From: Planctomycetota bacterium
GTDB taxonomy: Bacteria > Planctomycetota > JAMOSO01
NCBI GenBank assembly: GCA_027063065.1
Contig: JAMOSO010000050.1
Location: 26,243 to 90,242 of the forward strand
Direction of reading: 5' to 3'
DNA: 64,000 nt
This document shows, in pieces, positions 24,001-30,000 of the stretch. Positions within the stretch are counted from its first letter, which is position 1; each line of letters begins with the position of its first letter. A program made the position numbers.

Positions 24001-27000
24001 TGTAACATTACCCACAAAATTTGGCGAATTTAAAATGCACCTATATATTGGGCCAGATGGCAAAGAACATATTGCCATGACTATGGGACTAGATGGCAAA
24101 ACAACACAAGAGCCAACATTGATACGAGTACATTCTGAATGTTTGACTGGTGATTTATTTGGCTCTTTAAGATGTGATTGTCAATCACAACTGCACGCAG
24201 CACTAAAAGCTGTGGCAAAAGAAGGACGCGGAGCTGTTATTTATATGCGTCAAGAAGGACGCGGTATAGGTTTAGCTGCTAAAATGAAAGCGTATAACCT
24301 ACAAGATCAAGGGCGAGATACTGTAGAAGCCAATGAAGATTTAGGTTTTAAAGCCGATTTACGCGATTACGGCATTGGTGCGCAAATTATAAGTAACTTA
24401 GGATTGAGAAAATTAAAATTATTAACTAATAATCCTAAAAAAATTATTGGTATAGAAGCCTATGGGCTTGAGGTGGTTCAAAGAGTGCCTATTGAAATCG
24501 AACCCCACGAATGTAATCTAAATTATTTAAAGACTAAAAAAGAGCGCATGGGACATATCATGCGACATATATAAAGGCTATTATGTCAGAAACTAAACTT
24601 ACCAATGTATACTCTGGTTCGCTTGCTACCCCAACAGGTAAATTTGCAATAGTATGTGCCAGATTCAACACACCTGTAACTATGAGTTTATTTAATGCTG
24701 CTAAAGAAACATTATTAAACCATGGAGTATCCCCAGAAAACATCAGTGAAGCATGGGTGCCAGGCGCTTATGAAATTCCTTTAATTGCACAAAAATTTGC
24801 GTCTAAAAAAGACTATTCTGCCGTAATTTGTCTAGGGGCTGTAATAAAAGGAGACACTCCTCATTTTGACTTTGTAGCTGGAGAAAGTGCTAAAGGCATA
24901 ATGGATATAGGTTTAAAATATTCCAAACCTATAATTTTTGGAATACTAACCGTCAATACACAAGAACAAGCTTGGGAACGAGCTACATGGGAAAGTGGCA
25001 ACAAAGGTAGCGAATCTGCCCTAACTGCCATTGAAATGGTAAATTTAATAAGCAGAATAGATACGTGATTGCTTTAATTTCAGACATTCACTCAAACATA
25101 GAAGCTCTTAGTGCTGTACTTGAAGACATCAAGTCACGCGATATAGATAAAATATACTGTTTAGGTGATGTTATTGGCTATGGCCCCAACCCAAAAGAAT
25201 GTTTGGAACTAGCAAAGCATTTTGATGTTTGCCTAATGGGCAATCACGAATACGCCGTCTTATATGGCGCTGAAAACTTTAATCCACGAGCCGCTAAAGC
25301 AATCGATTGGACTAGAGCTCAATTATTTGAAAAAAATGAAACAGGCAAAAACAATTTACAGTTTATTAAATCTTTAAAACAAATTTACGTCGAAGGTGAT
25401 TTAACCATGGTACACGCATCGCCTAGACAACCAATTAAAGAATACCTATTACCTGCCGATATACGCAATCCAACCAAATTAGACGCAAACTTTGCTTTAT
25501 TTGATCGCGTTTGCATTACGGGACATACTCACCACCCTGGAGTATTTTTACCAGGATACTCTTTTGAAAAACCATCAGATATAATGAATATTTATATGCT
25601 TGATTCCGACGAAAGAGCCATTTTAAATGTTGGTTCAGTTGGACAAAGTAGAGATGGCAATAATGACGCATGCTATGCAACCTTTGACGGTGATGCCATT
25701 GTGTTTAGAAGAGTAAAATATGACTTTATGACTACTATGAAAAAAATCAGAGCCATAAATCTATTAGACAATTCCCTAGCTGACCGCTTGGCAGCTGGGC
25801 GATAATTATAGGGCGCGAATACGGGTGCGCCGTCCAGACTTTACCGACATTGATTGGTTGTTAATGCTGGCTGTTTTTGCCGCCGTTACCATGGGAGTGG
25901 TGTTTATATGGAGTGCCTCGCACAACCCTGACGGCACTGTAAGCATGCGAGCTCCTATCAAACAATGTATATGGGCAACAGTAGGTTTTATAATTTTTTT
26001 AATTACTGCAAGAATTGATTATAACCTTTTTAGACGCTATGGATTTTTTATATTTATAAGCAATGTTATAATTTTAGGATTATTATTTACACCTTTAGGT
26101 TCTGAAGTAAATAATTCACGTGCATGGATTCGCATTGGAGGATTTTCTATTCAACCATCTGAATTTATGAAACTATCCTTAATTATTGGTATGAGTCGCT
26201 ACCTTATGCGAGAGAAAAACCTCCACTCAGCGCCTCATCTTATTATGCCTATATTAATAATGGCAGTTCCAATTGCTTTAATTTTAAAGCAACCTGACTT
26301 AGGAACAGCAATTACATTGCTACCTATTTTTTGTGCAATTATGTACATAGGTGGAGTATCTCGCAAACATTTGTTTATGTCTTTTTTTGCATTTATTGGT
26401 TTGGCTCTAACTATGTGGTTTGGCAATATTATGACGGACTATCAAAAAAGGCGTATATTTGCATTTTTAAATCCAGATGAATACCGTGTCGATGAAGCTT
26501 ATCAATTAATTCAATCCAAAATAGCTATTGGATCGGGTGGTTTTTGGGGAATGGGTATCGGAGAAGGCTATCAAAATCGCTTTGGATACCTGCCAACTGT
26601 AACAAAAAATAATGATTTTATTTTTGCAGTAATTGCTGAAGAATCTGGCTTTATTGGCATCACATTTTTAACCGTCTTATTTCTCATAATCGGGCTTGCC
26701 ATCGCCTCAACTGCCATAAAAACCAGAGAACCATTTGCTAGATTATTTTGTATGGGCGTTTTTGGATGGATTATGGGGCAATTTTTTGTCAATTGCGGTG
26801 TAGCGCTAGGATTATTGCCAACAACAGGTGTTCCTCTTGTATTTGTATCTTCTGGCGGCTCGTCATTAATTTCAATATTTATAGCTTTAGGTATCGTAAC
26901 CAATATCAGAATTAACAAAAAGTCTTATATTCATTCAACTAAAACCTAAATTATATTTTAAACTGTCAGCTCAACGAACTGCAAATATCATGTGATTTTG

Positions 27001-30000
27001 CACGATTGCACTTGGTTTCGTCCCTGTTCCTTAGCTTTATACAACGCCTCATCTGCATTCTTTACTATAATGTCTGGTTCAAATACAGTACCTCCTTCCG
27101 TACTTGACACACCAATACTCAAAGTTACAACTCCTGCTGGTAAGGAATGCTTATTAGAAATATTCATTTTTTCAATAGCAGCTCTAATTATCTCAGCTAC
27201 ATATACTGCATTATCAAGAGATGTATTTGGCAACAAAACAATAAATTCTTCACCTCCATAACGGGCACAGAAATCACTTGGTCTTTTAAGACATTCTTTT
27301 ATCTTTTTAGCAACTTTTTGCAAACATGCATCTCCATCAACATGGCCATAAGTATCATTATACATTTTGAAATTATCTATATCACACATAAATACAGACA
27401 ATGGTTCTTGACTCCTACGACTACGCCCAATTTCTTTTAATAAAGTTTCTGAAAAACTGCGACGATTTGGAATGCCAGTCAAAGCATCAATTACAGCCTG
27501 CTGTTGCATTACTTGATAAGCTTGAGTTATTTTTTTGCCAGCAACGACTATGCCCAATACACCTACAAAAGCAATCAAAATATGCCCTACCAAAAGAGAT
27601 AATAGTGGAATATGCATCACAAAAGGCAATGTAACGCTAATACCACCTCTGACATCACCTTCCTTATAACCCTGCCATTGATGACATTTTAAACAAGACT
27701 TTTGAGTAATTAAAGGAGCCATATAAAAATAATAATTTTTCCCTCCTTTTTGAAAAAATATTCCTTTTTCTTTTACACCTTGTTCAAATTTTTGTAAGAA
27801 ATCTTTTTCTATTGCAATAGGTTTGTTTTGCGGACGAATAGGCTTAAGACTGGTAATATGAAATTGTATCCCATCACGTTCTTGGGCTACTTCAGAAATC
27901 TGTCGAGTCATAAATGCAGGGTTTATCTTCGTTAGAGTTACATTATCATTTACCTTGATATCTCTCATCGGCACATCAAGGTATGGATTTGGTAATGTAT
28001 TTTTTGTAACCTTAGCATACAAACCGCCATGACGTGCATTCCATGTGCGAGTTATTACAACTTGATCAAAAAAACTTCTTGCTGTTTGCAAAGCAATATT
28101 TTCTTGGCCGTTTTTTGCGCTGTTATAACTCCATAAAAAAGACCCTATAATCAACAACAACCATGACAAAACAGCAATAATGAGTAACTTTTGAGATTTC
28201 ATATTATATTATCCAATAAAACACCTAACTTTTTAACGCGGTAAAACTGTGTATTTATCCATTATAAACAACAAGTACCAAGCGATAAGTAAATATTATA
28301 CACTTTAAATAATTTGTATAGCACAAAATATAATAACATACACATAAAGCAACGATATCTACTTGTGCATATTTACATCACATAAAAGACCACGAAAAAT
28401 CTTCTATTGTCAAACCAGGTTGTTAATTAACTTTTTATTTTTAGGATATCTTCTCAAATATGATTTAAAAAGCAGACATCTCTACTTTACGGAAAAGTAG
28501 AGACATTTTAACTTTGCTTTGACAATAGTCGATATTAAACTTGACGAATAATTTTGATTCTCTAGGATATCTCGACTATGCAACAAGGAAAACTAATTGT
28601 TTTTTCTGGTCCTTCTGGATGTGGTAAAAGTACCGTAGTAGCCGAGTTATGTAGAAAAAATGCGCAGATGATGCCCTCTATTTCCGCAACCACTCGTGCC
28701 CCAAGGGGTAATGAGCAACATGGAAAAGAGTATTTTTTTCTCAAACGTAAGGAATTTGAAGCTGAAATAGCAGATGATGCCTTTTTAGAATACGCTGAAG
28801 TATTTGGCAACTATTACGGAACTAAATGGCGTTGGTTGGCTGAAGAATGGGAAAAAGGAACTTGGATATTATTGGACATTGACGTCCAAGGCGCAATGCA
28901 AATTCGCGAAAAAGCAGGTGATGCTTTGCTAATTTTTATTGCACCTCCCAGTATGGAAATTTTACGCCAAAGACTTGAAAACCGTCAAACAGAAAGTGCT
29001 GAAAAAATACAAATGCGTTTAGCAGAAGCTCAACGCGAGTTAGAGTTTTCTGAAAAATATGATGCAGTAGTTATAAATGATAAACTTGAAGAAACTGTTC
29101 TTCAAATTGAAAATATTTTAAAACAACGGTTTAACAACCAATTAACGGAGTAGTCGATGCTTGATTACGATATTGATGTATTAGTAAACAAAGTTGGCGG
29201 AGTATTCGCCCTAAGCGTTTTAGTAAAAAGACGTGTTCACATGCTTGTTAAAGGCGCCACCCCTTTAGTAGAAGTAAAACGTGGCATGGAGCCTTACGAA
29301 ATTGCCCTAGAAGAAATCTCGCAAGACAAGGTAGCCTACGACGGCGACCCTTACGCAAATTTCTAAACAAAAGATGCAAATTCAAATAACACAAACTTCA
29401 TCTGCCAGCGATTTACCACTACCCGCATATATGAGTAAAGATGCTGCAGGCATGGATTTAGTCGCTGCAATTGAAGACAGTATTGTTTTAAAAAAAGGTG
29501 AAATAAAATTAATACCTACAGGATTGTGTATAGCAATTCCAAGTGGATATGAAGCACAAATACGTCCGCGCAGTGGACTAGCTTATAAACACGGAATTAC
29601 TTTACCAAACAGTCCAGGCACTATTGATGCAGATTACCGAGGTGAAATCGGTGTGATAATTGCCAATTATGGTTCAGAAGATTTTACCATAACACGTGGT
29701 ATGCGCATTGCACAAATGGTTATTAATAAAGTAGAAATAATAAATTGGGAATTAGTTGAAGAACTATCCGAAACCGCACGAGCTCAAGGTGGGTTTGGCT
29801 CAACTGGAAAAAGTTCTTAACCAAATTATTTCTAATAGACCTTGCCATCAATCCCGTATTGATGGCATATTGTAAATATACATTGGCCGACCTACATATT
29901 GATTATGACTAAACAAACAAAAAATACATCTAAACACCGCGAACCACTAGCTTTAATAACTATTGGCATCACAGTATTTTTAACACTTAGTTTTGCATCT

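What the first reader, a model, noticed from the sequence alone, without database searches (positions are those of the whole stretch)
26988..28202. Active GGDEF cyclase with a periplasmic c-type heme (CXXCH) sensor domain
The periplasmic domain between the two TM helices is about 175 aa and ends in SCLKCH, a covalent heme-c attachment motif. Its overall pattern resembles the Tll0287/DUF3365 heme-PAS-like sensor family found in redox-sensing receptors. The cytoplasmic GGDEF has intact GGEEF and an RxxD I-site. This points to redox- or gas-responsive c-di-GMP synthesis.
Basis: partly seen in the sequence, partly recalled or inferred. Interest (0 to 1): 0.55.

Follow-up and report, generated by a model that had tools for sequence, protein, structure and literature searches.

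The report
Periplasmic heme-c sensor diguanylate cyclase
This gene encodes a membrane protein whose outward-facing domain should carry a covalently bound heme and whose inward-facing domain makes the signalling molecule c-di-GMP; this design was described in a 2026 preprint, so it is a well-supported but ordinary member of a known family.

Summary
ORF 26988..28202 (-) encodes a 404-aa protein with this layout: TM1 (6-26), a 172-aa periplasmic Tll0287-like/DUF3365 domain (PF11845, E=1.9e-23) carrying CLKCH at 170-174, TM2 (199-222), a 14-residue helical stalk, and a GGDEF domain (E=2.4e-51) with GGEEF at 316-320 and an RPSD I-site at 307-310.

The predicted sensor fold hits the three solved heme-c sensor domains first (Tll0287, GSU0935, GSU0582), then classical Cache domains. 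A February 2026 preprint renamed this family sCache_heme and lists GGDEF fusions as a common architecture. It also showed that one signalling-type member binds NO tightly but does not bind O2.

This protein lacks Tll0287's distal Cys; invariant Pro95 aligns with that position. Met98, one helical turn later, is as invariant as the CXXCH residues (150/150 diverse representatives). I infer His174/Met98 ligation with a displaceable Met.

The most likely function is c-di-GMP synthesis controlled by periplasmic NO or redox state.

Verdict: new member of a known kind, low-to-moderate interest.

The parts
26988..28202 (-). Whole gene: sCache_heme-TM-GGDEF diguanylate cyclase, 404 aa. It is monocistronic, convergent with rodA/ftsW and divergent from gmk.
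   Evidence: full-length AF2 model has mean pLDDT 88
28125..28187 (-). TM1 (residues 6-26), N-in. It continues as the long N-terminal helix of the sensor domain.
   Evidence: Hydropathy; helix 2-56 in the model; S21, F22, W24 and Y26 are conserved at its outer end
27609..28124 (-). Periplasmic sCache_heme / Tll0287-like (DUF3365) sensor domain, residues 27-198
   Evidence: PF11845 E=1.9e-23; profile hit to 5b82 E=1.3e-4; Foldseek top hits 5b82, 3b42, 3b47
27900..27923 (-). NPAFMTRQ motif (residues 94-101) at the start of the helix 94-109. Pro95 aligns with Tll0287's distal ligand Cys68. Met98 is the candidate distal heme ligand.
   Evidence: Alignment register; Met98 and Arg100 150/150, Pro95 149/150. 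The ligand role is an inference.
27681..27695 (-). CLKCH heme-c attachment motif (C170, C173, proximal His174) in a short helix inserted before the last beta-strand
   Evidence: aligned to Tll0287 C141/C144/H145; 150/150 conserved; helix 167-176
27537..27608 (-). TM2 (residues 199-222)
   Evidence: Hydropathy; continuous helix 199-236 in the model
27495..27536 (-). Short helical stalk (residues 223-236) joining TM2 directly to the GGDEF domain. There is no HAMP or PAS domain.
   Evidence: Model helix 199-236; no other Pfam domain found
27012..27494 (-). GGDEF diguanylate cyclase domain (residues 237-397)
   Evidence: PF00990 E=2.4e-51, TIGR00254 E=5.2e-53; WspR and PleD structures match at E down to 2.6e-40
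27273..27284 (-). RPSD allosteric I-site (R307-D310)
   Evidence: aligns with RSSD of WspR; R307 and D310 invariant
27243..27257 (-). GGEEF active-site loop (316-320)
   Evidence: invariant in 32 homologs
28203..28577 (.). AT-rich 375-bp divergent intergenic region shared with gmk. It presumably holds the promoter and contains a hairpin or inverted repeat at 28476-28506.
   Evidence: Promoter-like hits are not above the shuffled expectation.

Best explanation
The gene encodes a self-contained, dimeric inner-membrane sensor-enzyme. What the analyses support: a periplasmic single-Cache domain of the heme-c type (sCache_heme, PF11845) lies between two TM helices. Its CLKCH motif sits in the family's typical short helix before the last beta-strand. 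That strand runs straight into TM2, which continues as a 14-residue helix into a GGDEF domain that keeps every catalytic and I-site residue. What I infer: the cytochrome c maturation system attaches heme to C170 and C173, with His174 as the proximal ligand. The sixth ligand is not Cys as in Tll0287, because Pro95 occupies that position. It is most likely the invariant Met98. A small ligand, most probably NO by analogy with the only characterised signalling-type member, or oxidation of the iron, displaces that Met. The resulting shift of the Met-bearing helix and the last strand is passed through TM2 and the stalk, and it changes how the two GGDEF domains face each other. This turns c-di-GMP synthesis up or down. 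The RPSD I-site adds product feedback. The sign of the response cannot be predicted.
For: Domain calls are well above the curated cut-offs. Topology and motifs were read directly from the sequence. Both AF2 models are confident and place the CXXCH helix between the hairpin 145-164 and strand 183-192. The Foldseek top three hits are Tll0287, GSU0935 and GSU0582, followed by Cache domains. The profile alignment puts CLKCH on Tll0287 C141/C144/H145 and puts Cys68 on Pro95. Met98, Arg100, Tyr62 and the CXXCH residues are invariant in 150 representatives that are less than 50% identical to each other. The sensor domain is more conserved (67%) than GGDEF (62%) among 31 orthologs, which argues that the sensor is functional. 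The preprint shows the CXXCH is conserved in 99% of the family, lists the GGDEF fusion, and shows that a Cys-less signalling member binds NO with koff 6e-4 per second and forms no stable O2 complex. GSU0935 has His144/Met60 ligation with Met displaced by NO or CO and a redox-linked Met on/off switch (PMC8396549). The GGDEF residues match active WspR and PleD.
Against: No heme, ligand binding or enzyme activity was measured for this protein or for any sCache_heme-GGDEF protein in the literature I could search. No Ccm or System II gene is visible in the 64 kb window or in about 10 kb of extra flank. Met98 as the ligand rests only on conservation and alignment register, because I could not access model coordinates. 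The preprint's authors interpret the sixth ligand in their protein as water. NO selectivity was shown for a single HAMP-type member whose similarity to this subtype I did not measure. Ortholog neighbourhoods contain no nitrogen-oxide genes that would back NO as the signal.
Confidence: 0.6

Rival explanations
1. The protein senses redox potential rather than a gas. The heme switches between a reduced, Met-ligated low-spin state and an oxidised, Met-released state, as proposed for GSU0582 and GSU0935. c-di-GMP output would then track periplasmic or environmental redox potential.
For: Met98 is invariant. The GSU0582/0935 mechanism and midpoint potentials of -156 and -251 mV are documented. Orthologs are concentrated in anaerobes from redox-stratified habitats such as Desulfobacterota, Campylobacterota and Nitrospirota. 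One ortholog lies 2.5 kb from multiheme cytochromes.
Against: The only characterised signalling-type sCache_heme protein behaves as a tight NO binder. The two modes are not exclusive, since the GSU sensors also bind NO.
Confidence: 0.28
2. The protein senses another heme ligand that is common in its habitat, such as sulfide, CO or O2.
For: Tll0287 has been linked to sulfide metabolism. Close orthologs come from sulfur-cycling lineages such as Hippea, Desulfurellales and Sulfurimonas. The reduced GSU sensors bind CO.
Against: None of the sCache_heme proteins tested formed a stable O2 complex. There is no direct data for sulfide on this subtype.
Confidence: 0.08
3. The sensor is heme-free in this host, because the host lacks cytochrome c maturation. 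It would then act as an ordinary small-molecule Cache receptor, or as a constitutive cyclase.
For: No maturation genes and no other CXXCH proteins occur in the 64 kb window. The gene looks horizontally acquired, since orthologs in other phyla are closer (72-79%) than the host's housekeeping genes are to any other sequence found (about 60-64%).
Against: Every family-invariant pocket residue and the CXXCH are intact. The sensor is the most conserved part of the protein. A 64 kb window is far too small a sample to infer that genes are absent. The gene's composition is fully ameliorated, so it has been kept for a long time.
Confidence: 0.03
4. The GGDEF domain is a non-catalytic c-di-GMP receptor or scaffold.
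For: An I-site is present, and such sites can serve as receptors in degenerate GGDEF proteins.
Against: GGEEF, the D274/D276 metal site, N282, D291, R314, K391 and R395 are all conserved. The domain scores 174 bits and matches active WspR and PleD at E down to 2.6e-40.
Confidence: 0.01

Closest known systems
sCache_heme (DUF3365/Tll0287-like, PF11845) signalling-type receptors, 'Cluster 2' of Deshpande et al. 2026 (bioRxiv 10.64898/2026.02.01.703092). The P. azotoformans Cache_heme-HAMP receptor is the characterised example.
   Same: Same Pfam family. Both have a two-TM topology with a periplasmic heme-c Cache domain, the CXXCH in the inserted helix, and no distal Cys. The GGDEF fusion is explicitly listed as a frequent architecture.
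   Different: The output here is a GGDEF domain joined by a bare helical stalk, whereas the characterised protein has a HAMP domain and signals to a separate Ser/Thr kinase. No GGDEF member has been studied biochemically. I did not measure sequence similarity to the P. azotoformans protein.
Tll0287 of Thermosynechococcus elongatus (PDB 5B82)
   Same: It is the best structural match (Foldseek E=2.4e-6, TM 0.54-0.58) and the only PDB sequence hit (E=1.3e-4). The CXXCH and the following G-(Y/F)-x-x-G-D-x-R-G motif align.
   Different: Tll0287 is a stand-alone soluble protein with Cys68/His145 ligation and a 17-residue insertion after the CXXCH. Here Cys68 is replaced by invariant Pro95, the insertion is absent, and the domain is membrane-anchored and fused to an enzyme.
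GSU0582 and GSU0935 periplasmic heme-c sensor domains of Geobacter chemoreceptors (PDB 3B47, 3B42)
   Same: They rank second to seventh in the fold search. They are periplasmic c-heme sensors between two TM helices, with His/Met or His/water ligation, and NO or CO displaces the Met. This is the mechanism I propose here.
   Different: Their output is an MCP signalling domain. There is no detectable sequence similarity (no hit at E<=10). Their distal Met60 comes from the N-terminal helices of a swapped dimer, not from the helix that carries Met98 here.
Cytoplasmic heme-based c-di-GMP enzymes and partners: DosC/DgcO (globin-coupled), DosP (heme-b PAS), and the H-NOX and NosP partner systems
   Same: The logic is the same: a heme ligand or redox state controls c-di-GMP turnover.
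   Different: These use non-covalent heme b in unrelated cytoplasmic folds, and H-NOX and NosP are separate proteins. Here the heme would be covalent, periplasmic and in the same polypeptide as the cyclase. This protein works like them but is not a member of those families.

Membership tests
sCache_heme / Tll0287-like (PF11845, DUF3365) | Match to the family HMM above the curated threshold | tested here: met
   83.9 bits against a cut-off of 24.1, E=1.9e-23, covering residues 35-193 and HMM positions 6-144 of 144
sCache_heme / Tll0287-like (PF11845, DUF3365) | Conserved CXXCH aligned with the heme-binding motif of a solved member | tested here: met
   CLKCH 170-174 aligns with Tll0287 C141-L-A-C-H145. 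It is conserved in 32/32 and 150/150 sequences.
sCache_heme / Tll0287-like (PF11845, DUF3365) | Cache fold with the CXXCH on a short helix inserted before the last beta-strand | tested here: met
   Secondary-structure order in the AF2 models. Foldseek top hits are 5b82, 3b42 and 3b47, followed by Cache domains McpH, TlpC, CitA, DcuS and KinD. This rests on predicted models, not experiment.
sCache_heme / Tll0287-like (PF11845, DUF3365) | Extracytoplasmic location, which covalent heme attachment requires | tested here: met
   Two hydrophobic segments with positive charges on the cytoplasmic sides. GGDEF needs cytoplasmic GTP, which forces residues 27-198 to the outside. This is a hydropathy analysis only; no dedicated topology predictor was available.
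sCache_heme / Tll0287-like (PF11845, DUF3365) | Covalently bound heme c actually present | not testable with these tools
   Needs heme staining, pyridine hemochrome or mass spectrometry
sCache_heme / Tll0287-like (PF11845, DUF3365) | Host encodes cytochrome c maturation (Ccm or CcsBA/ResBC) | tested here: inconclusive
   None found in the window, nor in 9 kb beyond the window start (L078), nor in 0.6 kb beyond the window end (L080). The rest of the genome could not be retrieved.
Tll0287-type (stand-alone, Cys/His-ligated, 'Cluster 1') subgroup | Distal axial Cys (Cys68 in Tll0287) and a stand-alone architecture | tested here: not met
   Only two Cys occur in the sensor domain, in 32/32 orthologs and 139/150 representatives. 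Pro95 sits at the Cys68 position. The protein is fused to TM helices and GGDEF.
Catalytically active GGDEF diguanylate cyclase (PF00990 / TIGR00254) | HMM match plus an intact GG(D/E)EF loop and metal- and substrate-binding residues | tested here: met
   174 and 179 bits. GGEEF 316-320, D274/D276, N282, D291, R314, K391 and R395 are conserved and aligned to WspR.
Catalytically active GGDEF diguanylate cyclase (PF00990 / TIGR00254) | RxxD I-site five residues upstream of GGDEF (product inhibition) | tested here: met
   RPSD 307-310 aligns with RSSD of WspR. R307 and D310 are invariant.
Catalytically active GGDEF diguanylate cyclase (PF00990 / TIGR00254) | c-di-GMP synthesis demonstrated | not testable with these tools
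   Needs an enzyme assay
Named NCBIfam cyclase equivalogs (PleD, SiaD, DgcA, DgcN, DgcQ, AdrA and others) | Whole-protein score above the equivalog cut-off | tested here: not met
   All matches cover the GGDEF domain only and score far below the cut-offs, for example PleD 157 against 474 and SiaD 157 against 290

The most novel reading that the evidence does not exclude
In this large subtype, marked by the NPxxMTRQ signature and found on histidine kinases and cyclases across many phyla, the sixth heme ligand would be the invariant Met98 rather than water. Signalling would work by NO-driven or oxidation-driven release of that Met. This protein would then be a one-polypeptide periplasmic NO/redox-to-c-di-GMP converter, a route separate from the cytoplasmic H-NOX, NosP and globin systems.
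Probability: 0.4. Interest if true: 0.45.

Novelty: new member of a known kind. Interest (0 to 1): 0.3.

Why it matters
Periplasmic heme-c Cache sensors were recognised as a family only in 2026, and no cyclase-coupled member has been characterised. This protein is short, has a single sensor and a single output with no HAMP or PAS domain in between, and is highly conserved. That makes it a convenient minimal model for two questions: how a periplasmic heme event crosses the membrane to control c-di-GMP, and whether Met98 is the switchable ligand. For genome annotation the conclusion is ordinary: the gene should be called an sCache_heme (heme-c) sensor diguanylate cyclase.

Tried and rejected
1. 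Exact-product look-ups for the target protein and P0001 found nothing. The same was true for the Na+/H+ exchanger near the window end. The source contig was reached only through nuoA and the Peripla_BP_2 gene.

2. Two exact-pattern scans of metagenome contigs, meant to reach beyond the window, found nothing. The search for Ccm or System II genes is therefore unfinished.

3. Sequence searches of the PDB with the sensor domain, as a single sequence and as a profile, found only Tll0287. GSU0582 and GSU0935 were found only by fold comparison.

4. I looked for a conserved neighbour gene among seven ortholog loci that might indicate the signal. There is none.

5. Rfam found nothing near the gene; the only hit in the window is a tRNA at 48874-48947. 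Promoter-like matches in the upstream region are at the shuffled expectation.

6. Compositional evidence for recent horizontal transfer is absent: GC z=-0.4 and GC3 z=-0.6.

7. Host taxonomy gave conflicting answers: MetRS points to Fibrobacterota and S1 to Planctomycetota. I left it unresolved.

8. Model coordinates are not exposed, so I could not measure the Met98-to-His174 geometry.

9. It is 10 bp perfect and reaches 13 pairs only with G-T pairs.

10. The first row of alignment A1 lacks Met1 because I trimmed the wrong end of a minus-strand reference. Positions printed are therefore one lower than true residue numbers. All residue numbers in this report are corrected.
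Full report
**Observation**

The ORF at 26988..28202 on the minus strand is real. It is 404 aa with an ATG start, and homologs begin at the same position. Kyte-Doolittle analysis gives two hydrophobic segments, at about 6-26 and 199-222. Lysines sit before TM1 (K2, K5) and just after TM2 (K223, K224). The C-terminal GGDEF domain needs cytoplasmic GTP, so the 172 residues between the helices must be periplasmic.

CLKCH is at residues 170-174, GGEEF at 316-320 and RPSD at 307-310. From the window's own amino-acid frequencies, about 6e-4 CXXCH motifs are expected in a domain this size and 0.07 in all 53 ORFs. This is the only one observed.

**Domain identity**

Pfam gives Tll0287-like PF11845 at E=1.9e-23 (83.9 bits against a cut-off of 24.1) over residues 35-193. 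It gives GGDEF at E=2.4e-51 over residues 236-397. NCBIfam gives the generic GGDEF domain model and no named equivalog above its cut-off. PDB sequence hits for the C-terminal half are active cyclases such as WspR and PleD, at E down to 2.6e-40. The alignment with WspR covers RSSD...RYGGEEF.

The sensor domain alone hits only Tll0287 (5B82). The single-sequence search gives E=0.086 and a 22-sequence profile gives E=1.3e-4. CLKCH falls on C141-L-A-C-H145 of Tll0287.

**Structure**

The full-length AlphaFold2 model has mean pLDDT 88. It shows a long N-terminal helix (TM1 plus the first Cache helix), a beta-sheet core, and a short helix at 167-176 that carries CLKCH. This is followed by a last strand at 183-192 and then a continuous helix at 199-236, which comprises TM2 and a 14-residue stalk entering the GGDEF domain. 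There is no HAMP or PAS domain.

The sensor domain modelled alone has pLDDT 84 and pTM 0.73, with the same order of elements. Foldseek against the PDB ranks Tll0287 first (E=2.4e-6, probability 1.00). GSU0935 (3B42) and GSU0582 (3B47) follow, and these three are the only solved heme-c sensor domains. After them come classical Cache domains: McpH, TlpC, CitA, DcuS and KinD.

**What is already known**

A bioRxiv preprint of 2 February 2026 (10.64898/2026.02.01.703092) analysed DUF3365/Tll0287 systematically. It found the CXXCH conserved in 99% of members and reclassified the fold from PAS to Cache, naming it sCache_heme. It lists GGDEF, EAL, histidine-kinase, MCP and cyclase fusions as the common signalling architectures.

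The preprint also reports experiments. A stand-alone Cys/His-ligated member from P. putida binds NO weakly. A membrane-bound, Cys-less, HAMP-linked member from P. azotoformans binds NO with koff 6e-4 per second and forms no stable O2 complex. A follow-up preprint (10.64898/2026.05.25.727664) concerns the same HAMP receptor, and my term search of it found no mention of GGDEF or c-di-GMP. I found no paper that characterises an sCache_heme-GGDEF protein.

**What I add: the distal heme position**

All 32 aligned orthologs have exactly two cysteines in the sensor domain, so Tll0287-type Cys/His ligation is impossible. Extending the profile alignment by one residue puts Tll0287's distal Cys68 opposite Pro95, which begins the helix at 94-109.

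I searched the sensor profile against 1.84 billion cluster representatives. It found 5971 clusters at E<=1e-3 and 3418 at E<=1e-30. The best 150 are less than 50% identical to one another and range from 179 to 1385 aa. In these:
- Met98, Arg100, Tyr62, Cys170, Cys173 and His174 are each 150/150.
- Asn94 and Pro95 are 149/150.
- His58 is 142/150 and Met161 is 144/150.

Met98 is thus exactly as invariant as the heme-attachment residues. It lies one helical turn after the Cys68-equivalent position, where Tll0287 has Val.

GSU0935 provides a precedent. It has His144/Met60 ligation, NO or CO displaces the Met, and a redox-linked Met on/off switch is the proposed signalling mechanism (PMC8396549). 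I therefore infer His174/Met98 ligation with a displaceable Met. This remains an inference.

**Distribution and evolution**

The top 120 full-length homologs all have PF11845 plus GGDEF, are about 405 aa long, and are 55-79% identical to the target. Named sources include Desulfobacterota, Sulfurimonas, Anaerolineaceae and Nitrospirota. In the species-representative genomes, the best matches are bins labelled Desulfurellales (74%), Desulfohalobiaceae (72%) and Hippea (72%).

Among the orthologs, the sensor domain is more conserved (67% mean identity) than GGDEF (62%) or TM2 plus stalk (48%). By motif-based classification, which is approximate, the same sensor subtype is mostly attached to histidine kinases, with about 16 of 150 attached to GGDEF. 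Ortholog neighbourhoods are not conserved, so the protein appears to act as a one-gene module.

**Host and the maturation test**

The window lies on ENA contig ERZ27262648:k141_226828 (87,370 bp), in reverse orientation. The host's MetRS is closest to Fibrobacterota MAGs at 59-64% identity. Its ribosomal protein S1 is closest to Planctomycetota MAGs at about 60%. The lineage is therefore deep-branching and unresolved.

The cyclase has much closer relatives in other phyla than these housekeeping proteins have in any lineage found. That suggests horizontal acquisition, but the gene's GC and GC3 match the host's, so any transfer is old.

No Ccm or System II gene and no other CXXCH protein occurs in the window. 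None occurs in the 9 kb beyond the window start, which holds an 11-subunit nuo operon and an FHA-GGDEF gene. None occurs in the 0.6 kb beyond the window end. Attempts to retrieve more of the genome failed.

**Mechanism and verdict**

The most likely reading is as follows. A dimeric inner-membrane protein carries periplasmic heme c ligated by His174 and probably Met98. This heme responds to NO, which is the best-supported ligand for the signalling branch, or to redox state. The conformational change passes through the last beta-strand, TM2 and the short stalk, and it alters how the two GGDEF domains pair. The RPSD I-site limits output by product inhibition.

Identity and architecture are very secure, above 0.9. 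The nature of the signal is not: I put NO at about 0.4 and redox at about 0.3. This is a new member of a known kind, and the overall interest is low to moderate.

Noticed in passing
window 28476-28506 (within the intergenic region 28203-28577): There is an inverted repeat TCTCTACTTT-(5 nt)-AAAGTAGAGA, 10 bp perfect and 13 pairs if G-T is allowed. It lies between the divergent starts of the cyclase gene and gmk, and both strands have T-runs after it. It is unique in the window. The gmk-side leader 28440-28577 folds with z=-2.8. It could be an operator or a leader hairpin; the function is unknown.
   Followed up: partly
window 8266-9798 (-): A 510-aa HD_5/HD protein (PF13487, E=6.5e-21) has an ...HERENGKGYP... 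motif resembling HD-GYP. It may be a second c-di-GMP-related gene, a phosphodiesterase or a degenerate one, on the same contig.
   Followed up: partly
L078 20203-20384 (just beyond nuoN, about 9 kb outside the window start): An FHA plus GGDEF protein (296 aa called) follows the nuo operon. This is another cyclase-type gene in the neighbourhood, so the organism appears to be rich in c-di-GMP signalling.
   Followed up: no
window 5644-7698 (MetRS) and 47162-48775 (S1): The two markers disagree on the host lineage. MetRS is nearest to Fibrobacterota MAGs (59-64%) and S1 to Planctomycetota MAGs (about 60%). No close genome is in the species-representative collection. The host is a poorly sampled, deep-branching bacterium with about 35% GC.
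   Followed up: partly
window 26988-28202 compared with housekeeping genes: The sensor-cyclase has 72-79% identical orthologs in bins assigned to Campylobacterota and Desulfobacterota, whereas housekeeping proteins reach only about 60-64% to any other sequence found. This suggests an old horizontal transfer; the gene's composition is fully host-like.
   Followed up: partly
window 38152-41349 (-) and 37681-38106 (-): A FliD-like flagellar cap protein is unusually long at 1065 aa, and a FliS-like gene sits next to it. I identified both from their N-terminal sequences only, with no domain search. The organism is probably flagellated.
   Followed up: no
window 901-1284 (-) and L078 10001-20154: The nuo operon has 11 subunits (A, a fused B-C protein of 418 aa, D, H, I, J, K, L, M, N). 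No NuoE, F or G module is visible, which points to a ferredoxin- or other donor-linked complex I.
   Followed up: no
L002 7446-9449: In the Desulfohalobiaceae-bin ortholog locus, two multiheme cytochromes (5 and 7 CXXCH motifs) lie about 2.5 kb downstream of the sensor-cyclase. This arrangement is not seen in the other ortholog loci.
   Followed up: no
window 1893-4016 (-): A 706-707-aa SpoIIE/PP2C-type phosphatase (Pfam call from L078) has a long, low-complexity, Lys/Val-rich N-terminal region.
   Followed up: no
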